Shown: positions 17,029-58,328 of the stretch, piece by piece
How the letters are laid out: every line of letters begins with the position of its first letter
Position numbering within the stretch: the first letter of the stretch is position 1
Assembly: GCF_037042905.1 (NCBI RefSeq)
Contig: NC_087250.1
Coordinates: 9,860,001-9,924,000, forward strand
From: Lytechinus pictus
Taxonomy: Eukaryota
DNA: 64,000 bases
Direction: 5' to 3'
Notes under the pieces: model-generated
Told to the model about the DNA's origin: nothing
The model's database searches: none
The model's input: the letters and a program-made list of their open reading frames with translations, nothing else
Translations under genes and position numbers: made by a program

Positions 17029-17256
17029 TTAACCACATGAAACAGGGACCTTGCAGACAAAGGGATATTTTAAAAAACAGAATGTGTCTCGCCATCCCGA
17101 ACGTACTACCCAGTACATTGTGCAATATGGATTGGACAAGTCCAGTCCATATCCAGCAAGCCATTTGTTGTAGTTGAACGGTGTCCCATCTGTCCAAACA
17201 AAGGGACCAGGTAAGCTGGGTCGGTGAAGCCCGATCCAGTACCCGTTATCACCAAT
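17029..17256 (-). CDS. Gene 2 CTLD C-terminal exon (IGDNGYWIGLHRPSLPGPFVWTDGTPFNYNKWLAGYGLDLSNPYCTMYWVVRSGWRDTFCFLKYPFVCKVPVSCG*)
   Basis: Translated by hand; absent from the ORF track. WIGL, FVWTDG, YNKW, C..W.D..C and PFVCK motifs; tttccctacag acceptor, phase 0, fits the previous exon; 76 codons to TAA. Confidence 0.93.
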   Translation of the reverse strand: MGDNGYWIGLHRPSLPGPFVWTDGTPFNYNKWLAGYGLDLSNPYCTMYWVVRSGWRDTFCFLKYPFVCKVPVSCG

Positions 17257-17540
17257 CTGTAGGGAAATGACAGATAAAATACCAAAGTAGGCTTACATAT
17301 TTTCGATGAAATCTGGGCCCGTAGCAAAAAGAAAGTTTGAATGTATAACCACATTTGCTTTGATTTTTATGAAAAGCCTGCTGTACTTCTGCCAACAGTT
17401 TTCTCACTAAAAGGCGCCCATGGCTTCATTGTGACACTATCCAAAAGGCGCGTACACCAAAATAACCATTCGAAACCGCACAGAATGGGGCCAAGGCCTT
17501 GAACTTTCCACCCATTTGCATAATTGTTTAATCTTGTAAT

Positions 17541-18278
17541 GGCCCGTATTCTGAAGGCGGGTTTAATTTAAACCCTGGTTTAAAGTTGTGGTTTAACAAT
17601 GGAAAGCCAGTTGTTAAATATATCTCTTACAGTATAAGTTTCATGTATCAGCTCATTTGACTCCCAAAACATTATTAATTGCCTGGGAAGGATAAGTGTG
17701 ACAGTTGTTCTCACCAGTAAAGAATTAGTAAAGAGCCAGTAAACATGAGTAGCATTCTGTAAACAAATTTGAAAAATTTGGCTTCTTATAATTTTAGCAC
17801 AGAGTTATACCCCCGTCACACTTATTCGGAATCAGCAGGAATCGAGCAGAAGCTGGAAAGAAAAAATATTCAAAAAATCTAGAAATTTTTGGGAGGAACT
17901 TATGAAATCATCAAACTGGAGTTGAAATTCAGTAAATTGACCAGGTGTATCATCATACACTAGTCAAATGAACCGCAATGGAGTCAGATTGATAATCGTG
18001 CTACGTTCTTGGACATTCTAGGGGCATTCTAAATATTCTGACTGCATTCTGAGTGCATTCGAAATATTTTTGTCATTTCTTTTGGCCGTCCCGAAGGTTT
18101 TGGTCATGTTCAAAACATTCGAGGGGTATTCTCGAACGATGTTGGAAGTAGATTTAAATGACCAATTGGTGGTCAAACAATAGTCCTTTCATTCAGGTCA
18201 ATTCTGCTTGATTCGGAATAAGTGTGATGGGGGCTTAAGACCATGGTCTAAGCTAAACCCGAATTCAGAATACGGGCC
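17541..18278. mobile_element. MITE (ggcccgtattctgaa TIR) carrying a nested TIR element at 17810-18233
   Basis: Outer ends ggcccgtattctgaa and ttcagaatacgggcc; inner ends cccccgtcacacttattcggaatca and tgattcggaataagtgtgatggggg. Confidence 0.85.
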
Positions 18279-19043
18279 TATGGGTGCATGTTTAGGAATA
18301 AGTGACCCCTTATTCACTGTGATGGAAAATTTTATTTCAAAGCTGTCTTTAGCAGTCTCATTTGGCAGTAATGTTTATCAACCTATGGGCAGAATTATGT
18401 GCAAAAATGAAATCGATTTGTTTATTCATGGATGAGTGAGCACGAATTAAAAAGGGAAAAGGGCGTATTTTCATTGTCACCGACTCTTCTTTAGGGGTTG
18501 TTAAGTGAATCATTGGGGCAAATTCAGATTCAAATGTGACTTCAACTGCTGTTGTTTTTAATCATCCATCATATTTATCACCACGCACTTTCCGAACTTT
18601 TTACACTTTCATGGTTGAGCGAGCACAATCGAAAACTCTTTTTACTGCATAAATGTATTCTTTTCCTAACTCTTTTTACTGCATTCATGTATCATTTTCC
18701 TAACAATTTCTCAGGATCAGTTGAATTCATGGACAAATCAAGGCAGAATTTGAAAGTGGAGAGGGGCCAAGAAATTGGGGGAGGAGAGCGACTAACATTT
18801 TCCAATTTTAACATGTTTTAACTACCATTAACCCCTATGATGATCATGATACATCACAAAAAAATTGTGCTCACTCAACCATTATCAAAATTTTGTGTGG
18901 AGTGGCTAATTAATGGATAGTAAAACATAAAATTCACAAAAAAAACATACAGCAACAACCTTTGCCTTACTTTCTGTTTACACCATCTGAAAAACGACTC
19001 TTGTGACTTTCAAAAATAGTCATTTTTAATTCAATCTTTGATT

Positions 19044-19480
19044 CACCGGCGTAAATCCACTGTGAGGAGTGGGGAATGATTGACTTTTTTGACGATTTTA
19101 TTTTCTGTCGATCTGACACTTGGGTATAAACACACACTCTCACTGACCCCCACAGACCCCCTTACACACATTTTTATATTTATTTTGCGAGTGATTACAA
19201 TTTTCTAGTTTTTAATCGCTTTTCCTAACATAAATTCTAAAATATGAGCGAGCAAAGCGTGCAAGCCAAAAATAACCACCTTTTTTGTTTTCAATCGCAT
19301 TTTCAAATAGAAATTCTAAAATATGATGGTTGTTTATGACAGATATTCAAAGATTTTACTAACGGATTAATTAAAATATATTTTCTTTCTTAAAAAGTGG
19401 ATGGATATTTGTACACGCCATCCCCCCTCTCCAAAAAGTGGGGGGATGTATCCCCCGTCCCCCCGGGATTTACGCCAATG
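19044..19480. mobile_element. hAT-like non-autonomous element with an 8-bp TSD
   Basis: ctttgatt|caccggcgtaaatcc ... ggatttacgccaatg|ctttgatt. Confidence 0.85.
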
Positions 19481-20535
19481 CTTTGATTACTCATGCATGA
19501 CGCAACTGATCAATCTCATTCCCCCCAGGAGTTGCTTAATGAGTGTAGACAACCACCTACGAAATATCATATTCTAAAATTATTCCGTTCAAAAGTTACA
19601 GCATTTTTATTTAGGGGGGAATTACTTTTTTGTTGTGTATATGTATGACTATATATTTAATCAAATCAAATCGGTCGTGCGATCCAAAAGAGTAAATAGG
19701 GGGTAGTTTCATTAATATTTAAATATTGATGAAACACCGGGTCACTCGGCGGGAGCGTTGGTAATTTCACCGAGCCTATTTATCAATCTATTTCAGGAGG
19801 TAAATCTACTTAAAAACAAACATTTTTTAAAACGTTTAACAAATCTTGAAAAAAGCTTAGTTGAAATATTCTTTTAAAAATGTGTTTGATGATTTTTTAA
19901 CAGACTTTGATGTTCCTGTCATTACAGGTTGATAACATTGAAAGATAATTTTTAGCATTGAAAATATGTTATTAAGATGTTTCTTTAATTTCTGAACAAA
20001 AATCATCATGAAAATGTGGAAAATGGTTTTGTTAAACACTGATGAATTCTTCTCTATTAAGGATTTTGATAAACGTAAAAAAATATTTAAAATAGTGTTC
20101 AATATCTTCTAAATACTTTATCATGACCTTTCTAGAACGTTAAATGTTATTGAAGTAATATTTTGATAACATTTAAAAAAATGTTTTGTTTCTGAAAAGT
20201 ATAATTAGTATGATATTATCAAAGCGTAAAAAAAAATTTACGTTTCGGGAAAACAAAAGATAATTCTTGTAAAGAATATTTAGCTATAATATTTTGAGAA
20301 CATATTTTCTAAACTTTTATACAACTTTTAAATGCATTAATTAAGTTTTACCAAAGTTTCAAGATGGTATTTTCTTATATCAAATGTATTTACCAACGCC
20401 GTAAATATAGAGATGTTAGTAAAACGTTATTTTGTTTCTGAAAAACAATATGCATCATAATAACATCAAAATAAGGATATTTGTTTTCTAATATGTTTAG
20501 TTATTTGTTTTAATATATACCAATACATATATATA

Positions 20536-21355
20536 CAGTGCGTCCCAGAATAAACGAAACCGAGATTTAGCGATGATTTATCATAACTTAATCATAAATA
20601 CAATATACAAATTACCTATCAATGTAAAGCTTAGAATCTCCTCTTTCATCTGATATTACTTAGATTATTTCTCATTCACGCATGAGTGAGCAAAAACAAT
20701 TTGAATAAAGGATACCAAAAACTCATTTGGCGGGGGGTATCTGAATTTCAAAAAGAAAATCACATGCCTAAAAAGTTCAATATCTGCTCTTTCATTTGAT
20801 ACCTTAATCACAAAAAATGGTCCAGAAGTAAAAAAGTTATGTTCCCTCGAAACAATGCTTGTATTTCCATAATTTCATTAAATAAACTTGTTTTCACCGG
20901 TTTCCCACAGAAGCTATCGCACGGTTAACAAAAGACTTAGTGCATGGCTGATCTTCAACAAAACGGAGTATCGAGTGAGTTTGAACGCTAGCCTGTAAAA
21001 CCTCTTCATCTTATGAAATTATTGAAATTCAAGCCTTATTTCAAATAACCAGAACTTTCTTATTTCTTGACCATTTTCTGTAATTGAGGTATCAAATTAA
21101 AGAGGAGATATTGAACTTTTTTAAAATGTGGTTTTCGTTTTGAAACCCAGATACAGCCCGCCAAATGACGTTTCGTTATCCCCTCTTCAAATTGTTTTTG
21201 CTCACTCATGCGTGAATGAAAAATGATCTAAGTAATTCCAGATGAAAGAGGAGATTCTAAGCTTTACAATGGTAGGTCATTTGTCTATTGTATTTGTGAT
21301 TAAGTTATGATAAATTATTGATAAATCTCGGTTTCGTTTTTTGTGGGAAGCACTG
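20536..21355. mobile_element. Tc1/mariner-type MITE with long (~300-bp) TIRs
   Basis: ta|cagtgcgtcccagaataaacgaaaccgagattt ... aaatctcggtttcgttttttgtgggaagcactg|ta. Confidence 0.88.
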
Positions 21356-21466
21356 TATATAATAATATACCAAGTATATTTCAGCGCCTTGAGCACATAA
21401 TCAATGTGGATTTGGCGCTTTATAAATACTCTATGTTATTATTATTATTATTATTATTAATAGCAT

Positions 21467-21580
21467 CAGTGGCGGACCGTGACTCGGAGGAGACAAAGCA
21501 ATGGAGGGGCCCTGTATTGTTTGCGAACAATGCTGTGCCCCTCCAATGCTTTGTCTCCTCCGGGTCACGGTCCGCCGCTG
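21467..21580. mobile_element. 114-bp fully palindromic hAT-like MITE with a perfect 8-bp TSD
   Basis: aatagcat|cagtggcggaccgtgac ... gtcacggtccgccgctg|aatagcat. Confidence 0.92.
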
Positions 21581-22447
21581 AATAGCATATTTTCACAATT
21601 TTTCAAGAACGTTTGTTGTTATTGTCACACACAATGCTGAACATTACAAAATGTGAGTAAATATATATGTGTATATATTAATGTTAAAATTATATCATAA
21701 AAATGTCAAAATAAGGATGTTTCTGATATTTTGTTAAACATCATTAAAAACATTGTAAAAACATTGCTAAAAATGTTTTGTTATAATATTTGAGAAACAT
21801 AAACATGGCCGTGGGGCGTTACTAAACCGAATGTAAGTAAAGGTGACAAAATAATTACAATTATATTACTGTATTTGCTTCGAGGGTCAATTCAGGGAAT
21901 ACTTGTTAAGGGTACAGTCTTATTTCCAATACTTGTTAGGGTACGGTTTCACACGCCAATACTTGTTAAGGGGTGTATTTTCAGAACATGGAAAATACTT
22001 GTTTAGGGTGCTTTTCGAAACCCAATGGACGTGCCTAGTATCCATTCGTCAATAGAAGTGCCCCCCCCCCCCCCCCGGATCGCCCCGGATAGGTCTAATG
22101 ATTCAAAAGGCTAAACAAAACAATTGCTGCATACCACACATTTAAGTTAGGGCCTTTTCACACGTAAATCTTGAATCATCATTGCAATGATGATTGCAAT
22201 TCGTCTTTAGAATCATCGGACCTTTCACACGGAAAATTCGTATCGTAATTTGAATGAAACCAAACTGGAATTCACCTCAGGAATAGAATTTGAATTCGTG
22301 AATGTGATTAGCGTTCGTGATTCTAGTTTGGTTCCAAACGTGCAAAAAAAATCGTCACTAGCCTTTTTTTTTTTACTGGAATCGTCGTTCAAATTACGAT
22401 TTTTTTTTTCCCTGAGAAAGGACGGTTAGTGACCTGAAAATACTCAC

Positions 22448-22635
22448 TAGCTTTCGCAATGTAGTTGTGAAATTTAGTTCCTCTTCACTATGGATAGAAA
22501 CCAGATCCCCACGACATGACTGTCCACTGGTGAAATTACGACAGGTATACATGGCGCCTGTAAAGCTTGCTAACTCGTAAAATGATTCGTAGCAACTTCT
22601 TTCAAAGAGTTTCCATGATGAATACGGGCAAAGAT
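22448..22635 (-). CDS. Gene 2 C-type lectin-like domain, N-terminal exon (DLCPYSSWKLFERSCYESF...CRNF...DLVSIHSEEELNF...RKL)
   Basis: Long-form CTLD motifs CP..W..F..SCY, A..C and LVSIHSEEE; cctgcag acceptor (phase 1, fits the EGF exon) and gtgagt donor (phase 0). Confidence 0.92.
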
Positions 22636-22642
22636 CTGCAGG

Positions 22643-22913: not shown

Positions 22914-23242
22914 CAATGTACAACAAAGAAAAGCAGAGATGGTGCCTATTATTAATTAAAATAGTTGGAATTCGGAGGGGTTTGAGTAATTTGTCTACTA
23001 TTAAATCATACTGCATAGCTCATGTAGCTCTGATGCACATCGGGAATGCATTCACCCTTTGTATTCACAATGCAGTGTAACGGCAATCGCAGGTATAGCC
23101 AAAGATACTACAAGGCGAAGATCGGACACTTCGACGGTTTTTTGAAACGCTCGATATATGCTTATGGGGAAGGGCGCCAAACAGCGTTGAGTAAGTAAAC
23201 CTTCGCATACCTGCACGTGACTGTGTATAATAATAATAATAA

Positions 23243-23283
<41 letters not shown>

Positions 23284-23285
<2 letters not shown>

Positions 23286-23793
23286 CCTGTAGTAGAGAAC
23301 GACGATGTAAAACTTTTATGGGATTTTAATATCCAGACAGACAAGGTCATTGAAGCTAGACGACCAGACATCGTTCTCTTAAAGAAGAAGGAAAAGGAAT
23401 GTCTCATCATAGATATTGCGATTCCGGGAGACTGCAGAGCTTGGCGTAAAGAGGAGGAAAAGATACAGAAGTATAACGATCTGGCATGGGAGCTGAGAAG
23501 GATATGGAAGGTGAAGACGAAGGTGGTACCAATAGTCATCGGAGCCTTTAACAACAAGACACAGAAGCTGTCTGGCTGTTCTAGGAGTCGAGGTGTCCTT
23601 TGAAACGATACAGAAGGCAAGCTTGCCTGGAACAGCTCATATCTTACGGAAGGTCTTGAATTAGAAAGAGAAGTGAACAATGAGAAGAGGACCCATTTGA
23701 TAGAATATAGAACAATAACCCTAGATTTCTGGAAGAAGTCCGGTTGCTGTTTAATATACCAACATAACATCAAGTTGTGGACAATGGAAATAC
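23284..23793 (+). mobile_element. 5'-truncated copy of a second R4/Dong-like family (RLE domain plus 3' UTR)
   Basis: Encodes LLWDFNIQTDKVIEARRPDIV...IIDIAIP...KIQKYNDL...VVPIVIGA; lies between (TAA)n tracts at 23228-23283 and 23794-23841. Confidence 0.9.
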
Positions 23794-23841
<48 letters not shown>

Positions 23842-25898
23842 GAAGAAATTATGGTCAAATAAAGAAAAGGAAAATCTTATGACTTGCTTCTACTTTGCGA
23901 CTGATGTATCTCATAAAACTAGACATTTAAGGGAAAGCATCCATATTGTATTTGCAGCGTGCACCCGGCGGGCACACCCCCGCTGCGGTGATTAGTGAAC
24001 AGTGTGTATCTCGCCGCTAGATGCAGCTAGCGGCAGCGCGCTGTACCAATTAAAGCGGATTAACAGGAAAATCGATCCTTGCAGCTTTCTCGCAGCTTGC
24101 ACGCCGCCTGCACGCAGCTAGCTGTGCTTGCGAGCGAATCTCTCCTTTTCACTTAATTCGGTCTATTGATTGTCTTGTCGACAGGGCCAGGTTTCATGTT
24201 GAGTTATTTTGAGTACATAACGATGTATTTACGAAATGTTTGATTGACGATGCAACGCATTTTTTGTGTGTATATTTTGAATGTTTCTTGAAGAATAAAA
24301 AGCTTTAAAAATGTATTAAGTGAACACCCACGTCCCGCTTTTTTCTCGTCTGTTGCGTGAATTGCATGTGGAGGCTTGTTCATGTATTTGTTTTGATGTT
24401 TAAATTATGGCGGATCACAGATAGGATATTGCGTGGCGCTCGGTTTTTGAACGGGGATTGACTTTGTAAAAGTTGTACTTTGTTACTTTGAATCAACCTT
24501 GCAATTAACGACAGAAATATCCCATTCATAAATCTGTGGAATGGTCGGACGTATAATCGGTGTCTCATGCATTTAATATTATATCTCTTAATCTAATCGA
24601 CATATAACTCTCTTAATTTTCGACATAATTTTTGTAATAAAACGAAATATGCCTATTAAATCGACAATTGCTCCACGAAGTAAATGCGAAAATGATGCTG
24701 CCCCGATAATATTGCTGCACCGACATGTTCTCCGCTGTCCTTTTTTTTTACAGACAAAATATTTGTAGTACATGTAGCTCCTCGACGTTCCTTTTCTTTC
24801 TTTGTAATAGTTGTATCTTTATTTGTTCGTACTTTTACAATGTTTCGTACATGTCATGACAGAATTATGAAATGTGATATTTATACTTTATAATGATAAT
24901 ACTAAAGATAGTGCAAGTGCAGTGGCGTAACAGGTGGGGTGCAGGGGGCGGACTGCTCCCCCGCCCCCGCGGAGCTCACTGGGAAAATGAAATGTTAAAT
25001 AATGGGAAAGAGGAAATGAAAAGGGGAGAAAGATGGAAAAGGGAAGAAAAGGAAGAAAACGAGAGAGGGAAATGGAAAAGAAAAGGTCAGAAGGAACATG
25101 AAGGGAAGATAAAAGATAAAACGGAAGGAACGAGAAAAAAGGAAAGAAGAGCATGTGAGAGAGTAAAAAACATTAGAACGAGTGATCGAGGAAGTGGATA
25201 CAATTAAGGAAATGACAAAATTGAACGGGAATTTATGGCGAAAAGAGAAAGAAAAGGAAAAACGGGAAATGGAAGTACAATGAAATGTAAATTATATGTA
25301 AAAACAAATAACCGCATTCATTGGCTGCGGAAGCCAAAACATTAACGGGGGGTCCACCAGAAATGGGATGGACACAGGTAAAAAAATTTGACAAGCCAAA
25401 AAAAAAAGGCCATCAACCTAAATTTTAAGGGGGTCCACGTGAATTAGGGGGGACGCAGGAAAAAAAATGAAAAGCAAAAAAAAAAGTTATTATTTTTTTT
25501 TTTTTGGGGGGGACCGTCCCCCACCTCCAATTTAGGAGGGGGGTGGGGCAGGTCCCCCGCCCCCCCCCCCTTTGCTATCAACCACTGTAACGCCCCGGAG
25601 ATGGCATGGAGAATGATGGTGATATGATTATACTTTTGATGATCCTTTGTCCATAGTTTTGCTTTTATTGCAAAACGTTTATTCTTCTCTTTTGATGAAG
25701 GCCCGAAAGCTTTTGCATGGCTAAAAACGAAACATTACACGGATAACTACGTCTCACCATGGATCCTCCGAGAACACGCATCGATCTTACATTATCTTGT
25801 ATGATCTAATGACAACCTGTTTAATATCGAACGCTATCTCTGACTATTCTCCAAACGCAGACCCGACTATGATTTCAAAGGGAGTAATACGGTATTAC

Positions 25899-25946
25899 AC
25901 TACTACTACTACTACTACGACTACTACTACAACTACTACTATTACT
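25899..25946 (+). repeat. (ACT)n microsatellite
   Basis: Direct reading. Confidence 0.9.
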
Positions 25947-26060
25947 CTTGCCTATATGCAGGAGTTTTTTGCTGAAGGAATTGACGCGGTGATGAAAATA
26001 ATGAAAAATTATTGCCGTTCTCAGTGTCAATCATTTTCTCTACCTCTCGGAGTTAAGGAG

Positions 26061-26281
26061 CATTGGCGGCGGAAGCCACAAATTTCTTCTTTTTTTTGGG
26101 GGGGGGGGGGCGCAGGAAACGAAATTGACAAGCAAAAAAACAGGTTATCAACCAAAATTTCAGGGAAGGGACTACCAAAAAATTTTGACAGAAAAGAGGT
26201 AATCAACAAGATTTTTTATTTTATTTTTTTTTTTGGGGGGGGGGGGGAGGGGCACGTCCCCCCTCGCTTCCACCGCCTATG
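26061..26281. mobile_element. hAT-like MITE nested in the 5.3-kb element
   Basis: ttaaggag|cattggcggcggaagc ... gcttccaccgcctatg|tttaggag (TSD matches at 7 of 8). Confidence 0.72.
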
Positions 26282-26329
26282 TTTAGGAGTAGGCCCTTAT
26301 AATTAATTTAGAATATCATAAATACCCAT

Positions 26330-26805
26330 TCAGATTCGGAGTGAGAGATAGAGGGGGACGGGCAGAAGAAATGGGGAATATCAAAGAGGGGATTCGGAAT
26401 GAGAGATAGAGGGGGGGGGGGTGGCAAGACAAAAGAAGTGAAGGAAGAAGAGGTGATTCGGAATGAATGATAGAGGGGGGTGGCGAGACGAAAGAAGTGA
26501 AAGAACAAGAGGTGATTTGGAGTGAGAGATAGAGGAGGGGGGAAGGGGGCAGAAGAAATGGGGAATATCAAAGATGTGATTCGGAATGAGAGATAGAGAA
26601 GGGGGCGGGTAGAAGAAATGGGGAATATCAAAGATGTGATTCGGAGTGAGAGATAGAGGAGGGGGGGGGGCGGGTAGAAGAAATGGGGAATATCAAAGAT
26701 GTGATTTGGAATGAGAGATAGAAGAGGAGGGGGGGGGAGACGAAAGAAGGGTGATTCGGAATGAGAGATAGAGGAGGGGGGTGGCGAGACGAAAGAAAAA
26801 GAGGT
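26330..26805 (+). repeat. Purine-rich ~60-bp minisatellite, about 8 units
   Basis: Recurring gattcggaatgagagatagagg(g)n...gaagaaatggggaatatcaaaga. Confidence 0.85.
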
Positions 26806-28294
26806 GAATTAGTATATATATTGTTTTGAACTATCAAGTTTACGTCATGTTGATGAGTAAAAGCTTATTATGCGCCTTTGCCAGCACACGGATTATCATG
26901 TTGGGGGCACATGTATTAAATTATGGCATTCATCCCCATCATGATAAACCAAAATTGAAAATACTTTTTGTAATATTATGCAGAGATATCATATTTAAAA
27001 CATTGATGTACATTATTTTATTTATTTTGACATTTATGCTCCTCAAAAAATGTCTTATTTACCTGTAAAAATAAATATCATCAAACCGAAACTATGGCTG
27101 TTGGCATAAGCTTCCTTTTACCTTGTTTTCATACAAAACTCAGGATACGTTTGTTTTTTTTTTGGAAAAAAAAGTTCAAAGGGGACGAGACATCAAAGCA
27201 CCCCGTTAATTACCCTCGACAATGGGTTTAATCTCTCCCATTAACCCCCCCCCCCCCACACACACACACACAAGTCAGCCCTTATTGACAATAGAGTCAG
27301 GTTGAAATGAACCTGGCCCTGGAAATTATCAACATCCTGCTTAGCGGAAAATGAAAGGGAAAATCACAGGGATTATTTTGTCTTCTTCTTTCTTTTGTTG
27401 CCACAAGAGTGTTAGAATAAAAAGAACTTGATTGGTCTTTCAATGATAGTTTACTGTAAGTATTAAGGCGTATCAGCCATGCAACGTGGCCAACATGCCG
27501 ATGAGAAAAGGTTATATATCTCAACATATTTATATTTTCGTTAAACATCTTGAGTGTCAAACTCTATCTCTTTAATCATCTCCTCCGAAAAAATGATTAT
27601 TTTTTTTCTTTTTCAATAAATGAAACAATATAAAACTCTTGACATATATAACAGTCATTGTTTTATTGAAGGATTGATTGAATAGCCTGTGTATGTTTAT
27701 AATCGTTATTGTTGTCATCCCAATCTCTTCTTACAATTTCTTGTCACAATAATGAATAACAAATCTTTTAATGCAACTGTTTGTGGTATTGTAATATTAG
27801 TAAGATTTGCGGTACTTGATGACAATTGATAGATAAAAGTAGGAAGTAGAGGGATGCGAATTATAGGAGGAGAAAAACGAGCATATTAAAGCGATGAGGA
27901 AAAGCCGAATAAGAAGTAGAAGTGGATCGAGAAGAACAAGAAGGGGTCAACATTGTTGTTGTCAGTGCTATCAAGCAATGTTAACGTTTGAATAAAACAG
28001 GACAAAATTGGCGTGTAATGCAGTATCCAGCTGTATCCGGCCGCAAAAAACAAACGTAAAAGAAATCATTGATTCAATTTTGATTATTTTTCATACGTGA
28101 AGTCGTTTTCCAAAGTTCCCGAATCTTCCGTGTCAATCTGAATTTGCAAGCTGCACCATTTTCAAAATCGGCAGTACTTCTTTCGATAGTATTATTTTCA
28201 CTTCAGTTCGTTGACAACGGAATCTCTCCGGGTGGACATTATAACGTTAATTATGTCAATAAAACAAGATATGTTTATCTCCCAATGGCCTAGT

Positions 28295-28505
28295 TACAGA
28301 GCCTTTAAAGGGATATAAAACCTTTTATAAGTCGACTTGGCGAGATAGCGTATCTCGCCATGTCGACATATAACTTTTTATAAGTCCACTTGGCGAGATA
28401 AAGTATCTCGCCATATCGACATAATAAGGTTATTAAGTCGACATGGCAAGATAAAGTATCTCGCCAATTAAGTTGTCGAGTCGATAGCACTTTAAAGGCT
28501 CCGTA
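28295..28505. mobile_element. MITE with three internal palindromic repeats, nested in the 5.3-kb element
   Basis: TIRs tacagagcctttaaag and ctttaaaggctccgta; internal aagtcgacttggcgagata..tatctcgccatgtcgac three times. Confidence 0.8.
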
Positions 28506-29261
28506 CCTAATTGTTTTATTCTCTCAGTAAAACCTTTACATAAAAAAAACAAATATAATACAAAGTTAAAATACATGTATTACAAATCAGTGTAAAAGAC
28601 AGTCTAAAAATTGCATTATGATTCAGAATCATACTGAAGTAGTAAATTGCGAGAATTTTATTATCCACATCTGCACTGATCGGTCGCCATGTATGCGAGA
28701 CGACGCGGCGCACTAGCTAGCTGTAGTCGTTTCCAACTTGGTCATTGCTTCCATATCATGCTTCGCTACGGACATTAAAGAAAGCCTTTCATTAACATGT
28801 TTTTAACTCAGAAATAATTTGAAGTCGAACACTAGTACTAAGTGGAACTAGTACAGGCACATGCGGGGCACATGTTTAATCTTCATTCCAGAGCGAGCTA
28901 CGCCGCGGAATTGAGGTCTAGTCGTGGCCACATGAATCGTAGAAATTGCATCTGCCAATTTTAGTAGACATGGGGGCAGCGGTAGCGCGCTTAGGGTGAT
29001 TAGCTGCAGTTGACGCTAGCTTGCAGCGAGCTGCCGCTAGCACGCAGCGGGCTGGGGATTAAATCTATAATCCGATGGATTTACAAGTATGGCAGCGAGC
29101 GGCAGCGGGCACAGGGGGAGCTGCGAGAGCGGATGTGAGTTCTATTGTGCCTTAATTATCGCAGCTAGCTGCCGCTGGCCGACGCTATTATCCCGTCTTA
29201 GAGCGTGCAGGGGTACGCTCGCCGGGTGCACGCTGCCAATGCAATATGGATCCTTTCCCTA

Positions 29262-32200
29262 TACAGGAAGATAATGAGAGAAACGTGGCTTGAAAATAAT
29301 GGTGATCCATCCGTTGGAGAGCAAGCTCTGGCAGACATGAAACAAAGTATCCTTCGTACTCAATATTTCAGCGAGATTGAATTAGAGAGAATAAAGGAAA
29401 ATGCCCAAAGTCTTTGTAGAGAACGAAAGCGTAATGCAACAAAGAATCAAGATGACAGGGGAAAACGAATAACAGATAAAGTAGACAAATTGCACGACAC
29501 TAACAATGATAGAGAGAGATCGGGAAAAGGAGAAAACTCGGTAATCACCAACACTGAGAAGGTGAGAAATTCTATCCATGATGAAGGAAGTACAGTTTCT
29601 GGAAATACAGTGAATATATTTCTTGACGAGGGGATTATATTCAACAATCAACAGGATGTTCGGACGCAGAGTGATAGGGGCTTACGAGATGGAGAACACA
29701 ACCAAAGAATATCACAGGAACAACGTATGAATCGTCTTGATATGGACAGTGCTCAGAAGAAAAGAAAGAAAAATGACTACATCGCTCAATTTGGGGCGTG
29801 TTCCTTGTCTCTTCTACAAAAACTAGATGAAATCGAAACGGTAGACACACATATTGAGGCCGAATACCAAAGAGGAGCACATTTCTTTCAGTACTGTGAC
29901 ACATCTGACAACAAGCCCGCTGGTGGAGAGGGAAAGGGATCAACGATGAACAGAAGAAAAAACAGCTCTTATAAGACTGGATTCTCTTCACATGTAGACA
30001 TACACCAACACTTGCAACAACCTAAAGTGAAATCTCGTACTCTTCGGGTTACAGCAATAGAAAAGGCTAAGAAAAGACAAGAAATTACTGAGACTGAACA
30101 TGGGGACGATGTTGCCCATTTTCTATGCGGTGGAGAGCCTCGCATTCAACAAGATAAAGAATGTGAAAGGAACGTATCGGGTAATATCAAATCATCTGTA
30201 CCCGAGAGAGATGCGATTGTATCACAAGACTCGACAAATGAAGACAGAGATTCCGATCAACGGCTGTTATCAGCACTGAGGAGCAACTTTGAATATGTGA
30301 AGGGAATATCAATATCAGATAGACCCCAAATTCCCAAGATCGACACAAGGTGCTGTACTACTAGGAGCGTGATCGACAAAGTAGATAAAATGCTTGAAAA
30401 GGTGCAATCTAGTCCTTCCAGTTTGTTGGAGATAAACTGTCTTATCTGGGCAGGAGCAAAAACTGTAACAGAACATATGGGACTCAAGCTTCATTCATCA
30501 AACCACTCTACCAATCATAAGAAGAAGGCTCCTGAATGGAAGAAAAGGCTACAAACCAAGATAGCAGAACTACATAAAGACGTGGCTCAACTCGGAGAAG
30601 TAGATAAGGGAAACATAAAATCCAATCGGATGAAGAGCAATGCCAAAAGACTTCAGAAGAAATATCGCATTGACGATAAGACCCGTACTAGGACAACTGT
30701 TATAGAAACGCTCAAAATGAAGATAAATGCTCTCAAACACCGTGTTAAGAGATACACAAAGAGTAACAATTTCAAACGGCAGAATAAACTCTTCCATGGA
30801 AACAGAAAGAAATTCTTTCGTGAGCTGGATTCAAAGATGACTGAGACGAAAGATGTTCCATCGGCAGATGATATGAAGAACTACTGGAAAGAACTTTGGG
30901 ATAATGATATCACTCACGAAGAAACTCCCTGGATTCAGTCGGAAGCAGACAAATGGTCCAATGTGCCAGCGCAGCAGCTAGTAGACCTGACCTTACCTGA
31001 ACTACAAAACTACAAAATACTAATCTACTGAAAATCATCAATGACATTATCAGAGGGAACAGGACTATTGAGAAATGGCTGCCAATTGGAAGGACCTATC
31101 TACTGTACAAAGGCAAAGACCCAAAACAACCTAAGAACTATCGTCCAATCACTTGCCTTAATACTATGTATAAGCTGCTGACATCAACGCTTGCCATGCA
31201 CATCGAACGACACATCGATGATCATGACATAATGGAGGTCACTCAGAAAGGTTGTCGAAAAGGAAAGAAGGGTTGTAAAGATCACCTAATGACAAACAAA
31301 GCAATAATCGGTAATGCTCGCCAAAGACAGACCAATCTATCCATGGCTTGGATAGACTACAGGAAGGCATTTGACAGCGTACCACATAGTTGGATCATCA
31401 AAGTTCTAGAGATGTATCACATCAATCCACAAATAGTCAAGTGCATATCAGCAGGCATGAAACAATGGAGCACTACTCTTTCGCTTACGATAGGCACCCG
31501 TTCGATGACAGTGGAGGGGGTCCGAATCAAGAGAGGAATATTTCAAGGAGATTCCTTATCTCCTCTTTTATTCTGCTTAGCTCTCAATCCAGTATGCTCT
31601 CTCTTACACGCTACGAGTTATGGCTACAGATACAAAGGGCAAGATGTATCTACGACAATAAACCATCTGATATATATGGATGATATCAAACTCTTTGCAA
31701 AAAATGACGATGAACTTCACAAGATGATAGCAGTAGTTAAACATTTCAGCGATGACATCAAGATGTCGTTTGGTATAGACAAGTGTGCCAAAGTTACACT
31801 TGTACGAGGAAGGAGGGTAAATACAGGCGACATGTTTGTGCAAGATGAGGAAACATCAATCAAGGAACTGACTAATGATTCGACATATAAATATCTAGGC
31901 ATAGCTGAGAACGATGTCATTAGCCATAACACAATGAAGGAGAAGGCAACATCAGAATACAAAAGAAGACTCGGGCTGATCCTTAAATCCGAACTGAATG
32001 CCAAAAATAAGATTGAAGCGATCAACACTCTAGCCATTCCTGTGCTTAGATACAGTTTTGGTATTGTTAACTGGAGACTAGCTGATATATATGTGGCCTA
32101 GATATTATGACCAGAAAGCAATTAACGATGCACAGATTACATCACCCAAAGGCCGCAATCGAAAGGTTGTACCTTCCCCGTGATCTTGGAGGAAGAGGTC

Positions 32201-33192: not shown

Positions 33193-33289
33193 TAGTGTAA
33201 AGTTCCTAGTTGCACTTGAAATTACTTGGTGCTTTTTGTTAGAGCAAAGTTATTCAAGAAAAAAATACGGACTTGATCCTGTTTAGAGG

Positions 33290-33595
33290 AATAATAATAA
33301 TAAACAGTTCTTGTATAGCGCATATCACGATTATGAATAATGTCTCTATGCGCTTCCAAAGGACTTGGATATTATTACCCCAGCTGTAGCTTGGCAGCCG
33401 TAATTACTAAGATTACAGCGCACACGCATTTCAAGGAATAAATTCCTGCCAGGTATCCATTCACCTCACCTGGGTTGAGTGCAGCACAATGTGGATAAAT
33501 TTCTTGCCGAAGGAAATTACGCCATGGCTGGGATTCGAACCCACAACCCTCTGTTTCAAAGTCCGGAGACTAATCCACTGGGCCACAACGCTCCA
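33290..33595 (-). mobile_element. tRNA-derived SINE with (TTA)n tail
   Basis: Minus strand has A-box tggcccagtgg, B-box ggttcgaatcc and the core tgtgctgcactcaacccaggtgaggtgaatgg. Confidence 0.88.
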
Positions 33596-39595: not shown

Positions 39596-39650
39596 TCAAA
39601 AGCAAAAAGCTTGTTAGCACTAGAGATCTTCTAACGAAACCTCTCGTCAT
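39596..39650 (-). CDS. Gene 2 signal-peptide-like first coding exon
   Basis: Same sequence and splice sites as 4586-4640. Confidence 0.65.
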
Positions 39651-42704: not shown

Positions 42705-44279
42705 AACTTATATATTTTTTCTTGCCATCCAGGCTGAAAGCTGGCTCATTAAACATAAGGAGCGCGCAATTAAAACCAAACCATTCAATTTTTGGCCTCT
42801 CGTAGTTTTAACACTGGCTTAGACTATTCTATAACTTACACCCTACTTCGGAATACCGTCCAACCTTATATATTTTTCTTGCCATCCAGGCTGGAGGCTG
42901 GCTCATTAAACATAAGGAGCGCGCAATTAAAACCAAACCATTTAATTTTTGGCCTCTCATAGTTTTAACACTGGCTTAGACTATACTATAACTTACACCT
43001 TACTTCAGAATACCGTCCAACCTTATATATTTTTTCTTGCCATCCAGGCTGAAAGCTGGCTCTTTAAACATAAGGAGCGCGCAATTAAAACCAAACCATT
43101 CAATTTTTGGCCTCTCGTAGTTTTAACACTGGCTTAGACTATTCTATAACTTACACCCTACTTCGGAATACCGTCCAACCTTATATATTTTTCTTGCCAT
43201 CCAGGCTGGAGGCTGGCTCATTAAACATAAGGAGCGCGCAATTAAAACCAAACCATTTAATTTTTGGCCTCTCATAGTTTTAACACTGGCTTAGACTATA
43301 CTATAACTTACACCTTACTTCAGAATACCGTCCAACCTTATATATTTTTCTTGCCATCCAATCTGAAAGCTGGCTCATTAAACACAAGGAGCGCGCAATT
43401 AAAACCAAACCATTCAATTTTTGGCCTCTCGTAGTTTTAACACTGGCTTAGACTATTCTATAACTTACACCCTACTTCGGAATACCGTCCAACCTTATAT
43501 ATTTTTCTTGCCATCCAGGCTGGAGGCTGGCTCATTAAACATAAGGAGCGCGCAATTAAAACCAAACCATTTAATTTTTGGCCTCTCATAGTTTGAACAC
43601 TGGCTTAGACTATACTATAACTTACACCCTACTTCGGAATACCGTCCAACCTTATATATTTTTCTTGCCATCCAGGCTGGAGGCTGGCTCATTAAACATA
43701 AGGAGCGCGCAATTAAAACCAAACCATTTAATTTTTGGCCTCTCATAGTTTGAACACTGGCTTAGACTATACTATAACTTACACCTTACTTCAGAATACC
43801 GTCCAACCTTATATATTTTTTCTTGCCATCCAGGCTGAAAGCTGGCTCATTAAACATAAGGAGCGCGCAATTAAAACCAAACCATTCAATTTTTGGCCTC
43901 TCGTAGTTTTAACACTGGCTTAGACTATTCTATAACTTACACCCTACTTCGGAATACCGTCCAACCTTATATATTTTTCTTGCCATCCAGGCTGGAGGCT
44001 GGCTCATTAAACATAAGGAGCGCGCAATTAAAACCAAACCATTTAATTTTTGGCCTCTCATAGTTTTAACACTGGCTTAGACTATACTATAACTTACACC
44101 CTACTTCGGAATACCGTCCAACCTTATATATTTTCCCTTGCCATCCAGGCTGGAGGCTGGCTCATTAAACATAAGGAGCGCGCAATTAAAACCAAACCAT
44201 TTAATTGTTGGCCTCTCATAGTTTTAACACTGGCTTAGACTATACTATAACTTACACCCTACTTCGGAATACCGTCCAA
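42705..44279 (+). repeat. 157/158-bp tandem satellite, 10 units
   Basis: Same unit; 1575-bp span. Confidence 0.97.
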
Positions 44280-51300: not shown

Positions 51301-52614
51301 TTGTTTAAAATACTGACCGGGAACGTTCGGTGCGGTTCTTTCATACATGCAATTCATCGCAAGCCTTTGTGTTACGGAGCCCTGAACATATTAATCTTGA
51401 CTCAATGCAATGTCAAAACCTTAATCTGCACCTGCCCCAAATTTAGTGCCGCCCTGTTTCCATGGCAATGTACCGGTGCGTTGTTACGTACACCTGGAAT
51501 CCAAGCAACATGGGCATGATGGGGAAGCTACGAACTGAAGCAGAGGTTCAAGGTTCGAGCCCTGTGTCCCGTTACTCAAAGGTTACTGATTAATCGTACG
51601 CTTGATTTTTACTATGGATTGTACATCGTATTCAATGCAATACTTAATAACATAATAATTATATACAATTGTTATACAATAATGGCTTAGCCAATATATA
51701 CATACGCAATGGCAGTCATAAAGATACATGTTATATACAATAACCAATGTTACATAGTAATAATGAAAACATATAATGTCATTGTTGGTTTCGTCTGTAA
51801 TCTGATTGCGCCACACCAGTGCATACAGGGGGCACCTTGGGGGCGTTTGCCCCCCCCCCCCAAAAAAAAAAGTTTTCACCATCAAGACAAAAAAAGCGAT
51901 ATAATGTAAAGAAAGGAAAGAGATGGGTGAAATGTATGTATAATATCATTTTCTGAATATTAAGTCAAAATCTATCACTATATTGGATTTTTGTAACAAA
52001 AAATATCGAAAGTTTTGTTCGTCTCTTCGCTCGCTCGCAACATTCTTTTGATTTTTCCCGGTACACCATATTTGGCACCTAAATTCCTTTGGCTCATTAA
52101 ACTACTGAGTCGAGCTGAGTGATTTGTTGAAAATAACATTATCTCCTTACGTTTCGTGTCCATGAATATTCATGAGGCGTACTGACTAAATAAGCCCCAT
52201 GATATCATAGCTATGTCAATCGTGTCGGTACCGAATTGAAGCCATTTTAGTCTTTCCCCGGATGAATAGCATTTCGGACTTTTCGCAATTATTACGGGGA
52301 AACTCTCTACAACGCACCAATCTCTTTGAAATTTAAGTCAAACAACAATTGAGAGCAGAGAGGCTTTTTCCGAAAGTTGGTGGACCGGGACAGTATCGAA
52401 TGTTGGTGGACCGGGACAGTATCGGAATATCTTGACTCTGGACAACGACATATTTGCAATCGTTCGCCCGGTGCAAATCGTCGGATGATCTGCTGTACCA
52501 GTCCACCATCTTTCGACAAAAGCTACTCAGCTCTCCATTGTGATTTTAATTGCATTTCCAAAGGAATCAATGCGTTGTAGAGAGTTTCCCTGTAGTAAAT
52601 GCGAAAAGTCCCTA

Positions 52615-53347: not shown

Positions 53348-53535
53348 TAGCTTTCGCAATGTAGTTGTGAAATTTAGTTCCTCTTCACTATGGATAGAAA
53401 CCAGATCCCCACGACATGACTGTCCACTGGTGAAATTACGACAGGTATACATGGCGCTTGTAAAGCTGGCTAACTCGTAAAAGTGTTGGTAGCAACTTCT
53501 TTCAAAGAGTTTCCATGATGAATACGGGCAAAGAT
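53348..53535 (-). CDS. Gene 3 CTLD N-terminal exon
   Basis: Paralog of 22448-22635 with ES>QH and G>S changes; splice sites intact. Confidence 0.92.
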
Positions 53536-55720: not shown

Positions 55721-55825
55721 CGACTGCACATGTTGGTCCTTGAAACCTGGCTGAACAAGAGCAGGTGAAACCTTCCAGTGTTTCCGTGCATGTTCCTCCA
55801 TTAAGACATGGGTTGGGTAAACAGT
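55721..55825 (-). CDS. Gene 3 EGF-like exon
   Basis: Same peptide, with one synonymous change (TCC>TCT); splice sites intact. Confidence 0.92.
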
Positions 55826-58273
55826 CTGAGATCGAGAATTTGACGTGACACGACAAATTGAAGTAGATGGGAAAGTGAGTTAGCAGGGCATATAGAAACG
55901 GAGAAAAGAGACAAAGGCAGAAACGGGGAGACAAATAAAGACAGAGGCAGAAACGGGGAGACATAAAAAGACAGAAGGGATGGTTTGGGAAATAAAAGTG
56001 ATATTGCCATCTTTATCGTCAGAGGAACAATTGTATTCAAAACCTGTTATTTTACTCTCAAAACACTCGACGGGCGGATCCAGAGGGGCACATTCGGCCC
56101 GTGCCACCCCCTTTTAGGAGGCATCAGTATTTTTTGTTTTGGTCATTCATAGACGTGACGACTTATTTTTTTATTTTATTTATTTTTTTGGCTTGTCAAA
56201 TTGTTCATGGAACAAAATGAAATTTCTTTGATATTGAAGACCTTTTTTTGCATGTCATTTTTTTCTACATCAAATAACCTCGAATTGGTAGTGAGTTCTT
56301 TTTTTTCCAACATTTTCCTATAAATACGTGCCTCCCCCTCCCCATTAGAAAATCCTGGATTCACCCAAGCTCGATACAATCCACACCCTTGTAGTACAAA
56401 CTAGACAATGCTTTTTTTTCCATGGCGTGAAATTGGTAGTTTCATTAGTATGTGGGCGATTCCATGCTAGAAAAATCAGCCATTTTCTCAACATTTTTCA
56501 ACCTGCTGTCCAGACGAACGAAGAACTTCAATTTGCTTTGTGGTAATATTGAAGGACTACTGGGTAGACATGCAAACAACTGACAACCAACACAAATATG
56601 TTGTCCATAGTTGAATTAGAGCTTAAAATGTTGCGTGCCGTACGGGACATTTCTGCGTCCCGTACAACACTTTTTACCTCTAATTTACCCACAATCTATT
56701 TTTTGTGTGTGTTGGTTATTAGTTTTTCACATGACTACCCACGATAGCTTTATCATTGACAACAAAGAATATTTTATTGCTCAAGCATTCGGCTAGGAAA
56801 CTAGAAATTGTCAAAATGTCCCGTACGAAACGCATGGAATCGCCCATGTGGAATTCACAGCGGAGCAATTGCCCAGAGGAGCAAATTTCATCGAATCATT
56901 ATGAGCCACCAATTTTCGACAACGAATTCTTGCTCTATGTCATAAAGGATACTCGATATTTTATCCTACATAAATCAAATTTTGTATACATATTGGTCAG
57001 AATAGCATCATGTGACCAAACATATTTTCACTATTTTGCGATGATGTTGAAAATGAAATGACCATTGAAGAAAATTGACTATTCCGTGATGTCAATAACG
57101 GAATAATGCACTATTCCATCATTGACATCTCATTATACTGACACACATCATGCAATCTCTCGGGCGCATCGGTCAGCGAGGCAATTCGACCGGGCAAATC
57201 TTTGGCGTAGGCACAAATCCGCGCGATATCTGTATTTCAGTTCAGATTAAAAATAGGATGAACTAGATGTGCAAGAACTAGATTATCAAGACGTATTGTT
57301 CTAACTTAATATTAAATGTACGATATAAAACAAATATACCAGGCTTTCATTTTGAAAGTAAAGAGGCAATTATTCATTCTCGGTTGCACTGGCAAAATTA
57401 GTAATGCCAGTCCAACCTCGGACAAATAATTACGCAAGGCCTGATATGTTTCTATAATATAATTTCCCTGCTTCTGGACCCTCCGAACATCGTGGAGCGA
57501 AAACTCGCTGCAGATATAAAAATGACAGTCTTAAAAGAGGCTTTGACAACATACCTGGGAGTTTGAAGATGAAGATGAATCGATTTGAAACGATTCTCTT
57601 TATCCCTGGCCAGTTGGTGTCATCTCTGACTATTAACTTGGGTTCCAGGGCAGCGATGTCTACCGTTTGCAGTAAGCCTGCTCCGCACCTTGCGTTTACT
57701 GGCATACCAAACTTTAAGACTGAAAAAAAAAATCAGACGAGATTCCAAGTCAGTCCCATCCCTACCGTCTTCGGTGAGCAAAAACAAATATGTGGCTTGG
57801 CCCTGGGAAGCGGGGGTATACTGGGGAGAAGGGGGGGGGGGGTATCTTTCTTTTTCTTTTTTCGCGAATTTTGTCGCCAAATTTGTCGTGATGTATATTA
57901 ACCTTGCTTGAGCTGTGATCAAACCAGCGCCTGAAACTGGATGAAAGTTGTCCGGATTCCAGCAGGAGAGCCAATTTGGGGAGTGTTATAGGATATCACG
58001 TATAAACGGAAGCGTAAAAGAAAACACTGGTACGCCGAGTACAAAACGAAATTGATTATTGATCATCGATTCTTTTTTTAAGCATCCATGGGACTAAGCT
58101 TGAAGGGAGGTTGATGATGTTGGAGAAGAATGCAATGAATAAGAGGGTTATCAACACAGAGCGTTCGTGCATAATAAGCTAAAAGATAAATGCAAAATAC
58201 CACAAAATATACGTATTGGGTTAGAAATATTACGGAATCCATGTGACATAAACGTAACTAAGTAAATACTTAC

Positions 58274-58328
58274 TCAAAAGCAAAAAGCTTGTTAGCACTA
58301 GAGATCTTCTAACGAAACCTCTCGTCAT
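58274..58328 (-). CDS. Gene 3 signal-peptide-like first coding exon
   Basis: Same sequence and splice sites as 4586-4640. Confidence 0.65.

What the first reader, a model, noticed from the sequence alone, without database searches (positions are those of the whole stretch)
17029..58328. Tandem array of small EGF + C-type-lectin-like genes not visible as whole ORFs
Seen: four minus-strand exons per unit with canonical GT/AG sites and compatible phases (signal-like exon ends phase 1; EGF 1-1; CTLD-N 1-0; CTLD-C 0-stop). Gene 2 is 39650-39596, 37149-37045, 22635-22448, 17256-17029. Gene 3 is 58328-58274, 55825-55721, 53535-53348, 52845-52615. Gene 1 is cut by the left edge. Known: EGF followed by CTLD occurs in lectican G3 regions and at the N-terminus of sea-urchin suREJ1. 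Inference: with no transmembrane segment, this is a ~200-aa secreted recognition protein in a copy-number-variable cluster; I cannot assign it to a named gene.
Basis: partly seen in the sequence, partly recalled or inferred. Interest (0 to 1): 0.72.

Follow-up and report, generated by a model that had tools for sequence, protein, structure and literature searches.

The report
Sea urchin tandem secreted lectin-like genes
Three recently duplicated sea urchin genes encode a small secreted lectin-like protein that has lost the usual calcium-dependent sugar-binding residues and differs between copies mainly at that binding surface, as recognition proteins under pressure to diversify often do.

Summary
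The array is real. All eight stated exons have GT/AG ends and join in frame. The model lacks one exon: a 165-nt phase 1-1 exon in all three copies (57719-57555, 39043-38879, 4034-3870). It completes the signal peptide and adds a ~45-aa module. The products are 246 and 247 aa: signal, N-module, EGF, CTLD.

The closest relatives are automatically named sea-urchin proteins, such as S. purpuratus XP_030844747. They share the N-module and two extra cysteines and have no Sushi domain. This is not a lectican or suREJ1 fragment.

Most relatives keep EPN/EPS and WND-type motifs; both window copies have lost them. Between copies 2 and 3, 13 of 16 amino-acid substitutions lie in one 34-codon stretch on the canonical binding face (14 non-synonymous, 0 synonymous changes). 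The 5' halves differ by only 0.3%.

Best reading: a young tandem family of secreted, probably calcium-independent recognition proteins with a diversifying binding face. Splicing, expression and ligand are untested. Four look-ups of this scan's earlier notes showed no such array on other DNA.

The parts
58274..58328 (-). Gene 3 exon 1: start codon and most of the signal peptide (55 nt, ends phase 1)
   Evidence: an in-frame TAA 24 nt upstream of the ATG
57555..57719 (-).
55721..55825 (-). Gene 3 exon 3: EGF domain (phase 1-1)
   Evidence: Pfam PF00008 E 7.6e-9
53348..53535 (-). Gene 3 exon 4: N-terminal half of the CTLD, with the extra Cys of the QSC loop (phase 1-0)
   Evidence: 55% identical to S. 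purpuratus P0005/P0021
52615..52845 (-). Gene 3 exon 5: C-terminal half of the CTLD and stop; no EPN/QPD, WQA in place of WND, one conserved Cys replaced by Tyr
   Evidence: Pfam PF00059 E 7.3e-7
39596..39650 (-). Gene 2 exon 1 (identical to gene 3 exon 1)
38879..39043 (-). Gene 2 exon 2: N-module exon, missed (identical to gene 3)
37045..37149 (-). Gene 2 exon 3: EGF
22448..22635 (-). Gene 2 exon 4: N-terminal half of the CTLD
17029..17256 (-). Gene 2 exon 5: C-terminal half of the CTLD and stop; no EPN/QPD, WRD in place of WND, all core Cys kept
   Evidence: Pfam PF00059 E 2.4e-8
4586..4640 (-). Gene 1 exon 1
3870..4034 (-). Gene 1 exon 2: N-module exon (one base differs from genes 2 and 3; same peptide)
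2036..2140 (-). Gene 1 exon 3: EGF; the rest of the gene lies beyond the left edge
7686..8472 (.). 157-bp satellite array (5 copies), about 3 kb upstream of gene 1
42707..44279 (.). 157-bp satellite array (10 copies), about 3 kb upstream of gene 2
61375..64000 (.). 157-bp satellite array (at least 16.7 copies, cut by the window edge), about 3 kb upstream of gene 3
52276..52611 (.). Palindromic MITE-like element starting 3 nt after the gene 3 stop codon
   Evidence: folds on both strands (z -14.5 and -13.3)
16715..17025 (.). The same palindromic element after the gene 2 stop codon
   Evidence: z -16.3 and -17.1
23231..34124 (.). About 10.9 kb of gene 2 intron 3 with no collinear counterpart in gene 3: a non-LTR retrotransposon (29202-33192, +), a TIR element (23930-29260) and a truncated retrotransposon piece in a TAA microsatellite
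17385..22077 (.). About 4.7 kb present only in gene 2 intron 4, holding palindromic repeats

Best explanation
A recently and repeatedly duplicated sea-urchin gene family encoding a secreted ~246-aa protein: cleavable signal peptide, ~45-aa N-module with one free Cys, EGF spacer, one long-form CTLD with a probable extra disulfide.

Shown from sequence: the five-exon open frame, the domains, the relatives, loss of the EPN/QPD and WND motifs, and clustering of amino-acid change in the long-loop/beta3-beta4 region.

Inferred: (1) the genes are spliced and secreted as modelled; (2) the CTLD no longer binds sugar through calcium site 2 and uses the same face for a calcium-independent ligand (protein, lipid or glycan); (3) the N-module Cys links subunits and gives avidity; (4) unequal crossing-over or gene conversion, possibly helped by the satellite arrays, homogenises promoter, signal, N-module and EGF while selection drives the binding faces apart. 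The most likely role is non-self recognition (agglutinin or opsonin) in coelomic fluid or on a body surface.
For: Frame, splice sites and signal peptide. Domains.

Relatives: of 18 HMMER hits to the CTLD-N exon I looked up 10. Five of these show a sea-urchin name (P0005, P0006, P0007, P0013; P0011); the others are unnamed or the name is cut. The QSC Cys occurs in 10 of 38 CTLDs examined (2 window, 8 sea-urchin or same-cluster). In 8 of these 10 it comes with an extra C-terminal Cys, and neither feature occurs in the other 28. Of the 8 relatives, 7 keep EPN or EPS and 6 keep WND or WHD; 0 of 2 window copies keep either. These motifs are the sugar-binding residues (PMC9965136, passages).

Divergence: 13 of 34 codons differ in residues 203-236 against 3 of 104 in the rest of the CTLD (p 5e-7). 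That stretch has 14 non-synonymous and 0 synonymous changes, pN 0.185, while nearby introns and flanks differ by 2-5%. Corrected for scanning all windows, 2-6 of 20000 neutral simulations give such a cluster, and P(0 synonymous of 14) is 0.010-0.024. The rest of the CTLD looks constrained (pN 0.020, pS 0.073).

Mosaic: 9 differences in 3038 upstream bases, 5 in 1729 in intron 2, and 1 silent change in 108 codons, against 3-5% from inside intron 3 onward. Precedent for repeat-flanked, recombining immune clusters in sea urchins: PMC5103432 (abstract).
Against: Over the whole CTLD dN/dS is not above 1 (dN 0.060, dS 0.050, p 0.52). The signal rests on one pair of genes, 14 changes and a window picked after seeing the data. 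The tree does not put the window pair inside the QSC group: its sister is an unnamed long-branch domain (P0015, support 0.93), within a wider clade of 18 domains, mostly sea-urchin (support 0.975). Invertebrate CTLD motifs vary, and specificity does not follow from them alone (PMC9965136), so loss of calcium use is inferred. Gene 3 has lost a core Cys, which also fits decay. The signal peptide was judged by hydropathy and by eye, not with SignalP. The N-module has no Pfam, PDB or Atlas match and was modelled at pLDDT under 50 in the relative, so its role is a guess. Nothing here points to immune tissue rather than gonad, tube foot or skeleton.
Confidence: 0.55

Rival explanations
1. Same protein, but a gamete or reproductive recognition protein (sperm, egg coat or spawning fluid) whose binding face diversifies under sexual or species-recognition selection.
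For: The CRDs of suREJ1-3 are under positive selection and are thought to act in gamete recognition (PMC1934368, passages). The clustered non-synonymous change fits this as well as immunity.
Against: No REJ domain or transmembrane segment. Divergence among tandem paralogs of one haplotype is, from my own knowledge, more typical of immune clusters than of bindin- or REJ-type loci.
Confidence: 0.17
2. A structural or secretory protein: extracellular matrix, tube-foot adhesive, skeletal matrix or pedicellaria secretion. The sugar-free CTLD is a protein- or mineral-binding module and duplication raises dosage.
For: A small secreted CTLD protein is among the Paracentrotus tube-foot adhesive candidates (PMC10057474, passages). 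Spicule-matrix proteins such as SM30 and SM50 carry CTLDs without sugar motifs, and SM30 genes are clustered (recalled, not from a call). The 5' halves are 99.7% identical, as dosage selection would give.
Against: Dosage selection predicts conserved CTLDs, not 13 substitutions in 34 codons with none silent. No proline- or glycine-rich repeat tail is present.
Confidence: 0.13
3. Young duplicates under relaxed constraint or on the way to pseudogenes. Gene 3 lost a core disulfide, gene 2 carries about 16 kb of extra intron DNA, and the divergent stretch came from a short conversion tract from a more distant paralog.
For: Cys-to-Tyr change in gene 3 and loss of the calcium-site motifs in both copies. 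Whole-CTLD dN/dS is near 1. Gene 2 introns 3 and 4 are 14409 and 5191 nt against 2185 and 502 in gene 3.
Against: Both complete copies have open frames and 8 of 8 canonical introns, and the one indel is a whole codon. Outside the loop stretch pN is 0.020 against pS 0.073. A neutral or converted tract should bring silent changes: 0 of 14 are silent (p 0.010-0.024).
Confidence: 0.11
4. Assembly artefact: haplotypes of one gene placed in tandem.
For: Blocks of 6.5-8.5 kb at about 99% identity, separated by satellite arrays.
Against: Three copies exceed two haplotypes. The copies differ in satellite length and in insertions, and change from 0.3% to 3-5% divergence at one point.
Confidence: 0.04

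Closest known systems
S. purpuratus XP_030844747 / XP_011677710 ('C-type lectin mannose-binding isoform-like', automatic name; P0021/P0005) and kin XP_011660857, L. pictus XP_063960401/2 ('neurocan core protein-like'), L. variegatus XP_041472746
   Same: N-module, EGF, single CTLD order in P0021 (245 aa). N-module 42%, EGF exon 65% and CTLD-N exon 55% identical. QSC Cys and extra C-terminal Cys shortly before the stop.
   Different: Relatives keep EPN/EPS and WND/WHD; the window copies have neither. CTLD-C is only about 37% identical. The database model P0021 shows no signal peptide (probably incomplete) and has a second N-module Cys that the window copies lack. No paper in the library names these accessions.
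S. purpuratus XP_003726452 ('echinoidin-like', P0032) and echinoidin-type small secreted lectins
   Same: Signal peptide, then a related N-module (41% over 27 aa, E 3e-5; 0 of 1000 shuffles), then one CTLD.
   Different: No EGF, keeps QPD and WND, no QSC or extra C-terminal Cys.
Lectican G3 region (aggrecan, versican, neurocan, brevican)
   Same: EGF directly followed by a CTLD.
   Different: No Sushi, Link or Ig exon in the frames scanned. Lecticans exceed 2000 aa in tetrapods per PMC514892 (passages). The fish aggrecan-type CTLDs branch apart in the tree.
suREJ1 / SpREJ1
   Same: Sea-urchin protein with one EGF and CRD(s); positive selection in the CRD (PMC1934368).
   Different: No REJ domain, no transmembrane segment, one CTLD, and about 246 aa.
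SpTransformer (Sp185/333) cluster, as an analogue of genome behaviour only
   Same: Clustered near-identical genes in segmental duplications bordered by tandem repeats, with conversion and duplication proposed (PMC5103432, abstract).
   Different: Unrelated protein (recalled: two exons, no CTLD). The repeats here are a 157-bp satellite, not GA/GAT microsatellites.

Membership tests
Echinoid N-module-EGF-CTLD group (XP_030844747 and kin; no published name found) | N-module before the EGF | tested here: met
   significant against P0021 and P0032, not against the 4 other N-terminal segments tried (55-418 of 1000 shuffles reach the score)
Echinoid N-module-EGF-CTLD group (XP_030844747 and kin; no published name found) | Extra Cys in the QSC loop plus extra Cys after the last CTLD strand | tested here: met
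   both in 8 of 38 domains, 2 of them the window's
Echinoid N-module-EGF-CTLD group (XP_030844747 and kin; no published name found) | CTLD falls inside that group in a tree | tested here: inconclusive
   inside a wider, mostly sea-urchin clade (0.975) but outside the weakly supported QSC clade (0.61), paired with a long branch
Canonical calcium-dependent C-type lectin (echinoidin, CEL-I type) | EPN or QPD motif in the long loop | tested here: not met
   absent in 2 of 2 copies
Canonical calcium-dependent C-type lectin (echinoidin, CEL-I type) | WND motif on strand beta4 | tested here: not met
   WRD in gene 2, WQA in gene 3
Canonical calcium-dependent C-type lectin (echinoidin, CEL-I type) | Calcium-dependent sugar binding | not testable with these tools
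   needs recombinant protein
CTLD superfamily | CTLD sequence with WIGL motif and core cysteines | tested here: met
   Pfam PF00059 above cut-off; gene 2 keeps all core Cys, gene 3 lacks one. The fold was modelled only for the relative P0021, whose top PDB matches are CTLDs.
Lecticans (CTLD group I) | Sushi/CCP domain after the CTLD; Ig and Link domains at the N-terminus | tested here: not met
   0 such hits in 116 minus-strand frames of unit 3 and 104 of the gene 2 introns; stop codon 7 codons after the last core Cys, as in relatives
suREJ/SpREJ (PKD1 family) | REJ domain and at least one transmembrane segment | tested here: not met
   definition from PMC1934368
CLEC18 (SCP-EGF-EGF-CTLD; architecture recalled) | N-terminal CAP/SCP domain | tested here: not met
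   no CAP hit
Type II membrane CTLD receptors | Uncleaved N-terminal membrane anchor | tested here: inconclusive
   one hydrophobic stretch at residues 10-28 (mean 1.79), broken by a Lys and ending in a V-x-A cleavage-type site; no SignalP run

The most novel reading that the evidence does not exclude
This is an undescribed, rapidly diversifying sea-urchin recognition family. A satellite-flanked cassette keeps a constant promoter-signal-N-module-EGF part by recombination and pairs it with variable, calcium-independent CTLD binding faces, giving a germline repertoire of soluble multimeric receptors that differs between individuals. The ~45-aa N-module would be an unnamed echinoid oligomerisation domain.
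Probability: 0.2. Interest if true: 0.65.

Novelty: new variant of a known kind. Interest (0 to 1): 0.38.

Why it matters
Tandem CTLD genes with diversifying binding faces are a known theme in invertebrates, so the array itself is not a surprise. What is useful is specific. The corrected five-exon model, an unnamed N-module shared with S. purpuratus proteins, and a lineage that dropped the calcium site its relatives keep together give a clean natural pair: two proteins identical over their first 108 residues that differ almost only at the binding face. That makes it directly testable how a lectin changes ligand class after losing calcium site 2. If expression is immune, it adds a second repeat-flanked, recombining recognition cluster in sea urchins beside SpTransformer.

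Tried and rejected
Expression: no RNA holder was listed (3 runs of one study, kind guessed, 0.08-0.21 of the words). Laying their contigs on 49000-61300 showed none of the predicted junctions among the 15 joints shown (195 more not shown), and the listed pieces were short repeat-like matches. This is no evidence for or against expression.

Genome-wide paralog count: no genome is held.

Word-index protein searches with single exons found no close relative: 2 hits at 34-36% among 6 candidates and 0 of 3 candidates. In one search the top row (P0003) and P0017 are repetitive sequences with no lectin domain and were dropped.

N-module: no Pfam family at E<=10, 1 PDB hit at E 1.3, Atlas first hit 0.83 with low recognition.

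Extra exons: Pfam on 220 minus-strand frames of 38 aa or more gave only the known EGF and CTLD exons above cut-off, and on 107 plus-strand frames nothing. The gene 2 3' flank (8473-17028) and gene 1 region were not scanned separately. A strict AG..GT scan of the four gene 3 introns found no further in-frame exon. Pfam did not flag the N-module or CTLD-N exons either, so such scans can miss exons.

The hairpin after the stop as a functional RNA structure: rejected as the main reading because both strands fold about equally, Rfam has 0 matches in the window, and 11-17 differing contigs per run cover position 52467, as a dispersed repeat would.

The 'intron 3 first 119' row (11%) ends at an insertion edge and was not used.

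A Sushi domain starting at the last residues: rejected because relatives end the same way.

Literature: no paper names six relative accessions. Five topic searches listed no study of this group. PMID 33152366 (body-surface lectins of Pseudocentrotus) is not held; I saw only its title. I opened no supplements; transcriptome or proteome tables may list these genes under other ids.
Full report
Observation. The eight exons listed for genes 2 and 3 are at the stated minus-strand coordinates, with GT/AG ends, and join into open frames of 191 and 192 aa. Pfam finds EGF on the EGF exon (E 7.6e-9) and Lectin_C on both last exons (2.4e-8, 7.3e-7). A self-comparison shows three tandem units, each with a 157-bp satellite array about 3 kb upstream of the start codon (5, 10 and at least 16.7 copies). 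Gene 1 is cut by the left edge. No whole genome is held.

A missed exon. The four-exon model gives a poor signal peptide running straight into the EGF. A search of 1.84 billion representatives with the CTLD-N exon returned 18 proteins. One cluster held S. purpuratus XP_030844747 (P0021, 245 aa). Searching the window with it revealed a further match in 3 of 3 units (E 2e-6). This is a 165-nt exon with a T-rich acceptor and a GTATGT donor, phase 1 to phase 1, at 57719-57555, 39043-38879 and 4034-3870. It matches P0021 at 42% over 45 aa (E 3e-9) and S. purpuratus XP_003726452 at 41% over 27 aa. None of 1000 shuffles reached either score; four other N-terminal segments gave no significant match. 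With it, the products are 246 and 247 aa. They have a basic start, a hydrophobic core and a V-x-A site near residue 28, and no later hydrophobic segment. An in-frame stop lies 24 nt before the ATG. Pfam scans of 220 minus-strand and 107 plus-strand frames found no other domain above cut-off, though Pfam also misses two of the real exons.

What it is related to. Of the 10 hits looked up, 5 show sea-urchin names and the rest are unnamed or cut. A profile search added more Strongylocentrotus and Lytechinus proteins at the top of 24 hits. I extracted 38 CTLDs from 29 of the 42 fetched proteins plus the two window models, leaving out proteins over 800 aa and five that were spurious, partial or redundant. 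An extra Cys in the QSC loop occurs in 10 of the 38, and in 8 of these with a further Cys after the last strand; neither occurs in the other 28. The window genes therefore end where their relatives end, and the last residues are not the start of a Sushi domain. The two extra Cys probably form a disulfide (inferred). The tree is less clear: the window pair sits in a mostly sea-urchin clade (support 0.975), but beside a long unnamed branch and outside the weakly supported QSC clade. A model of P0021 has a confident CTLD that matches DC-SIGNR, CEL-I and other CTLDs, and an N-terminal part under pLDDT 50. The window proteins themselves were not folded.

The binding site. EPN or QPD with WND are the sugar-binding motifs of C-type lectins, though they vary in invertebrates (PMC9965136, passages). 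Many CTLDs bind non-sugar ligands without calcium (PMC7308585, passages). Seven of the 8 QSC relatives keep EPN or EPS and 6 keep WND or WHD. Neither window copy has the first motif, and the second reads WRD and WQA. Gene 3 has also lost one core Cys.

Divergence between genes 2 and 3. The first 108 codons differ by one silent change. In the CTLD, 13 of 34 codons differ in residues 203-236 against 3 of 104 elsewhere (p 5e-7), and there is a one-codon indel in the same stretch. That stretch has 14 non-synonymous and 0 synonymous changes (pN 0.185), while the rest of the CTLD has pN 0.020 and pS 0.073, and nearby introns and flanks differ by 2-5%. By alignment, the stretch is the long loop and strands beta3-beta4 that carry the sugar site in relatives (structural assignment from my own knowledge of the fold). 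I chose the window after seeing the data. In simulations that scan all windows, 2-6 of 20000 neutral placements gave such a cluster, and the chance of no silent change among 14 is 0.010-0.024. Against this, dN/dS over the whole CTLD is about 1.2 and not significant (p 0.52), and only one pair of genes is available.

The array. Genes 2 and 3 differ by 0.3% upstream and through intron 2, by 3-5% from about 120 nt into intron 3 onward, and by 1.6% in the far 3' flank. Genes 1 and 2 are about 99% alike over all that is visible and share a 780-bp insertion that gene 3 lacks. This mosaic points to recent unequal crossing-over or conversion (inferred). Gene 2 introns 3 and 4 are enlarged to 14409 and 5191 nt. 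Intron 3 holds a retrotransposon with a reverse-transcriptase domain (E 2.4e-30) and a TIR element. A palindromic element starts 3 nt after each stop codon. It folds about equally on both strands and has no Rfam match, so I read it as a MITE.

How it most likely works. A secreted protein presents one CTLD on an EGF spacer. The single N-module Cys may link subunits for avidity (inferred; the module has no known family). The CTLD has left calcium-dependent sugar binding and uses the same face for another ligand, and the copies are diverging in specificity. Non-self recognition is my first choice (0.55), with the repeat-flanked SpTransformer cluster as a sea-urchin precedent (PMC5103432, abstract and outline). 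Gamete recognition (0.17) has the precedent of selected suREJ CRDs (PMC1934368, passages). A structural or adhesive role (0.13; PMC10057474, passages), decay (0.11) and artefact (0.04) follow. Splicing, tissue and ligand are all untested.

Comparison and novelty. It is a CTLD-superfamily member. It fails the defining tests for lecticans (PMC514892, passages), suREJ1, CLEC18 and canonical calcium-dependent lectins. It meets two of three tests for an unnamed echinoid N-module-EGF-CTLD group, and the third (tree position) is inconclusive. Six searches found no paper on that group; most subscription journals and all supplements were outside what I saw. Four look-ups of the scan's own notes showed no similar array. 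I class it as a new variant of a known kind. Interest 0.38: an ordinary kind of cluster, with a corrected model, a lost calcium site and a sharp, testable selection signal.

Noticed in passing
window 29202-33192 (+): Non-LTR retrotransposon in three overlapping frames (609, 366, 368 aa) with RVT_1 (E 2.4e-30) and a weak zf-RVT hit, ending near a short TAA run; antisense to gene 2. It looks like an R4/Dong-type element with a C-terminal endonuclease (classification recalled, not from a call).
   Followed up: partly
window 23227-23841 (+): A 5'-truncated piece that looks like the 3' end of a similar retrotransposon, flanked on both sides by TAA microsatellites.
   Followed up: partly
window 23930-29260: 5.3-kb element with 54-nt terminal inverted repeats (87%) and no Pfam domain in the frames scanned; probably a non-autonomous DNA transposon. 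Its right end abuts the retrotransposon's first ORF.
   Followed up: partly
window 22729-23230 and 34125-34672; 33601-33894: Part of intron 3 occurs twice in gene 2 (87.6% alike), with a third partial copy, so gene 2 may itself be a recombinant of two earlier units.
   Followed up: no
window 20530-21361 and 21466-21581: An 832-nt palindrome with 365-nt arms (85%) and a 116-nt palindrome in gene 2 intron 4, probably MITEs.
   Followed up: no
window 7686-8472, 42707-44279, 61375-64000: 157-bp satellite with a 315-bp two-unit higher-order pattern; array length differs between otherwise 99%-identical units.
   Followed up: partly
window 12416-13185 and 48192-48754: 217-bp tandem repeat (3.6 and 2.6 copies) in the 3' flank of each unit; divergence rises from about 1.6% to 3-5% across it.
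   Followed up: no
window 1131-1915 and 36141-36925: 780-bp insertion in intron 3 shared by genes 1 and 2 and absent from gene 3. It holds a 101-aa frame (1043-1348, minus) that looks like a LINE 3' end by recall; no Pfam hit.
   Followed up: partly
window 53564-53812, 58957-59100, 33290-33596 and others: Dispersed copies of a SINE-like repeat with a tRNA-like head (type judged by eye).
   Followed up: no
window 52371-52424: 26-bp tandem duplication inside the gene 3 palindrome, absent from gene 2. An ATTAAA at 52550 and 16964 lies inside the palindrome and could serve as the poly(A) signal.
   Followed up: partly
window 2220-2293, 37229-37302, 55904-55978: 30-bp tandem repeat about 80 nt upstream of each EGF exon acceptor, pyrimidine-rich on the coding strand.
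   Followed up: no
proteins P0007, P0022, P0023, P0024, P0010: These relatives carry a longer Cys-containing segment before the EGF that aligns loosely with the N-module but is not significant pairwise; no Pfam family covers it in the three scanned.
   Followed up: partly
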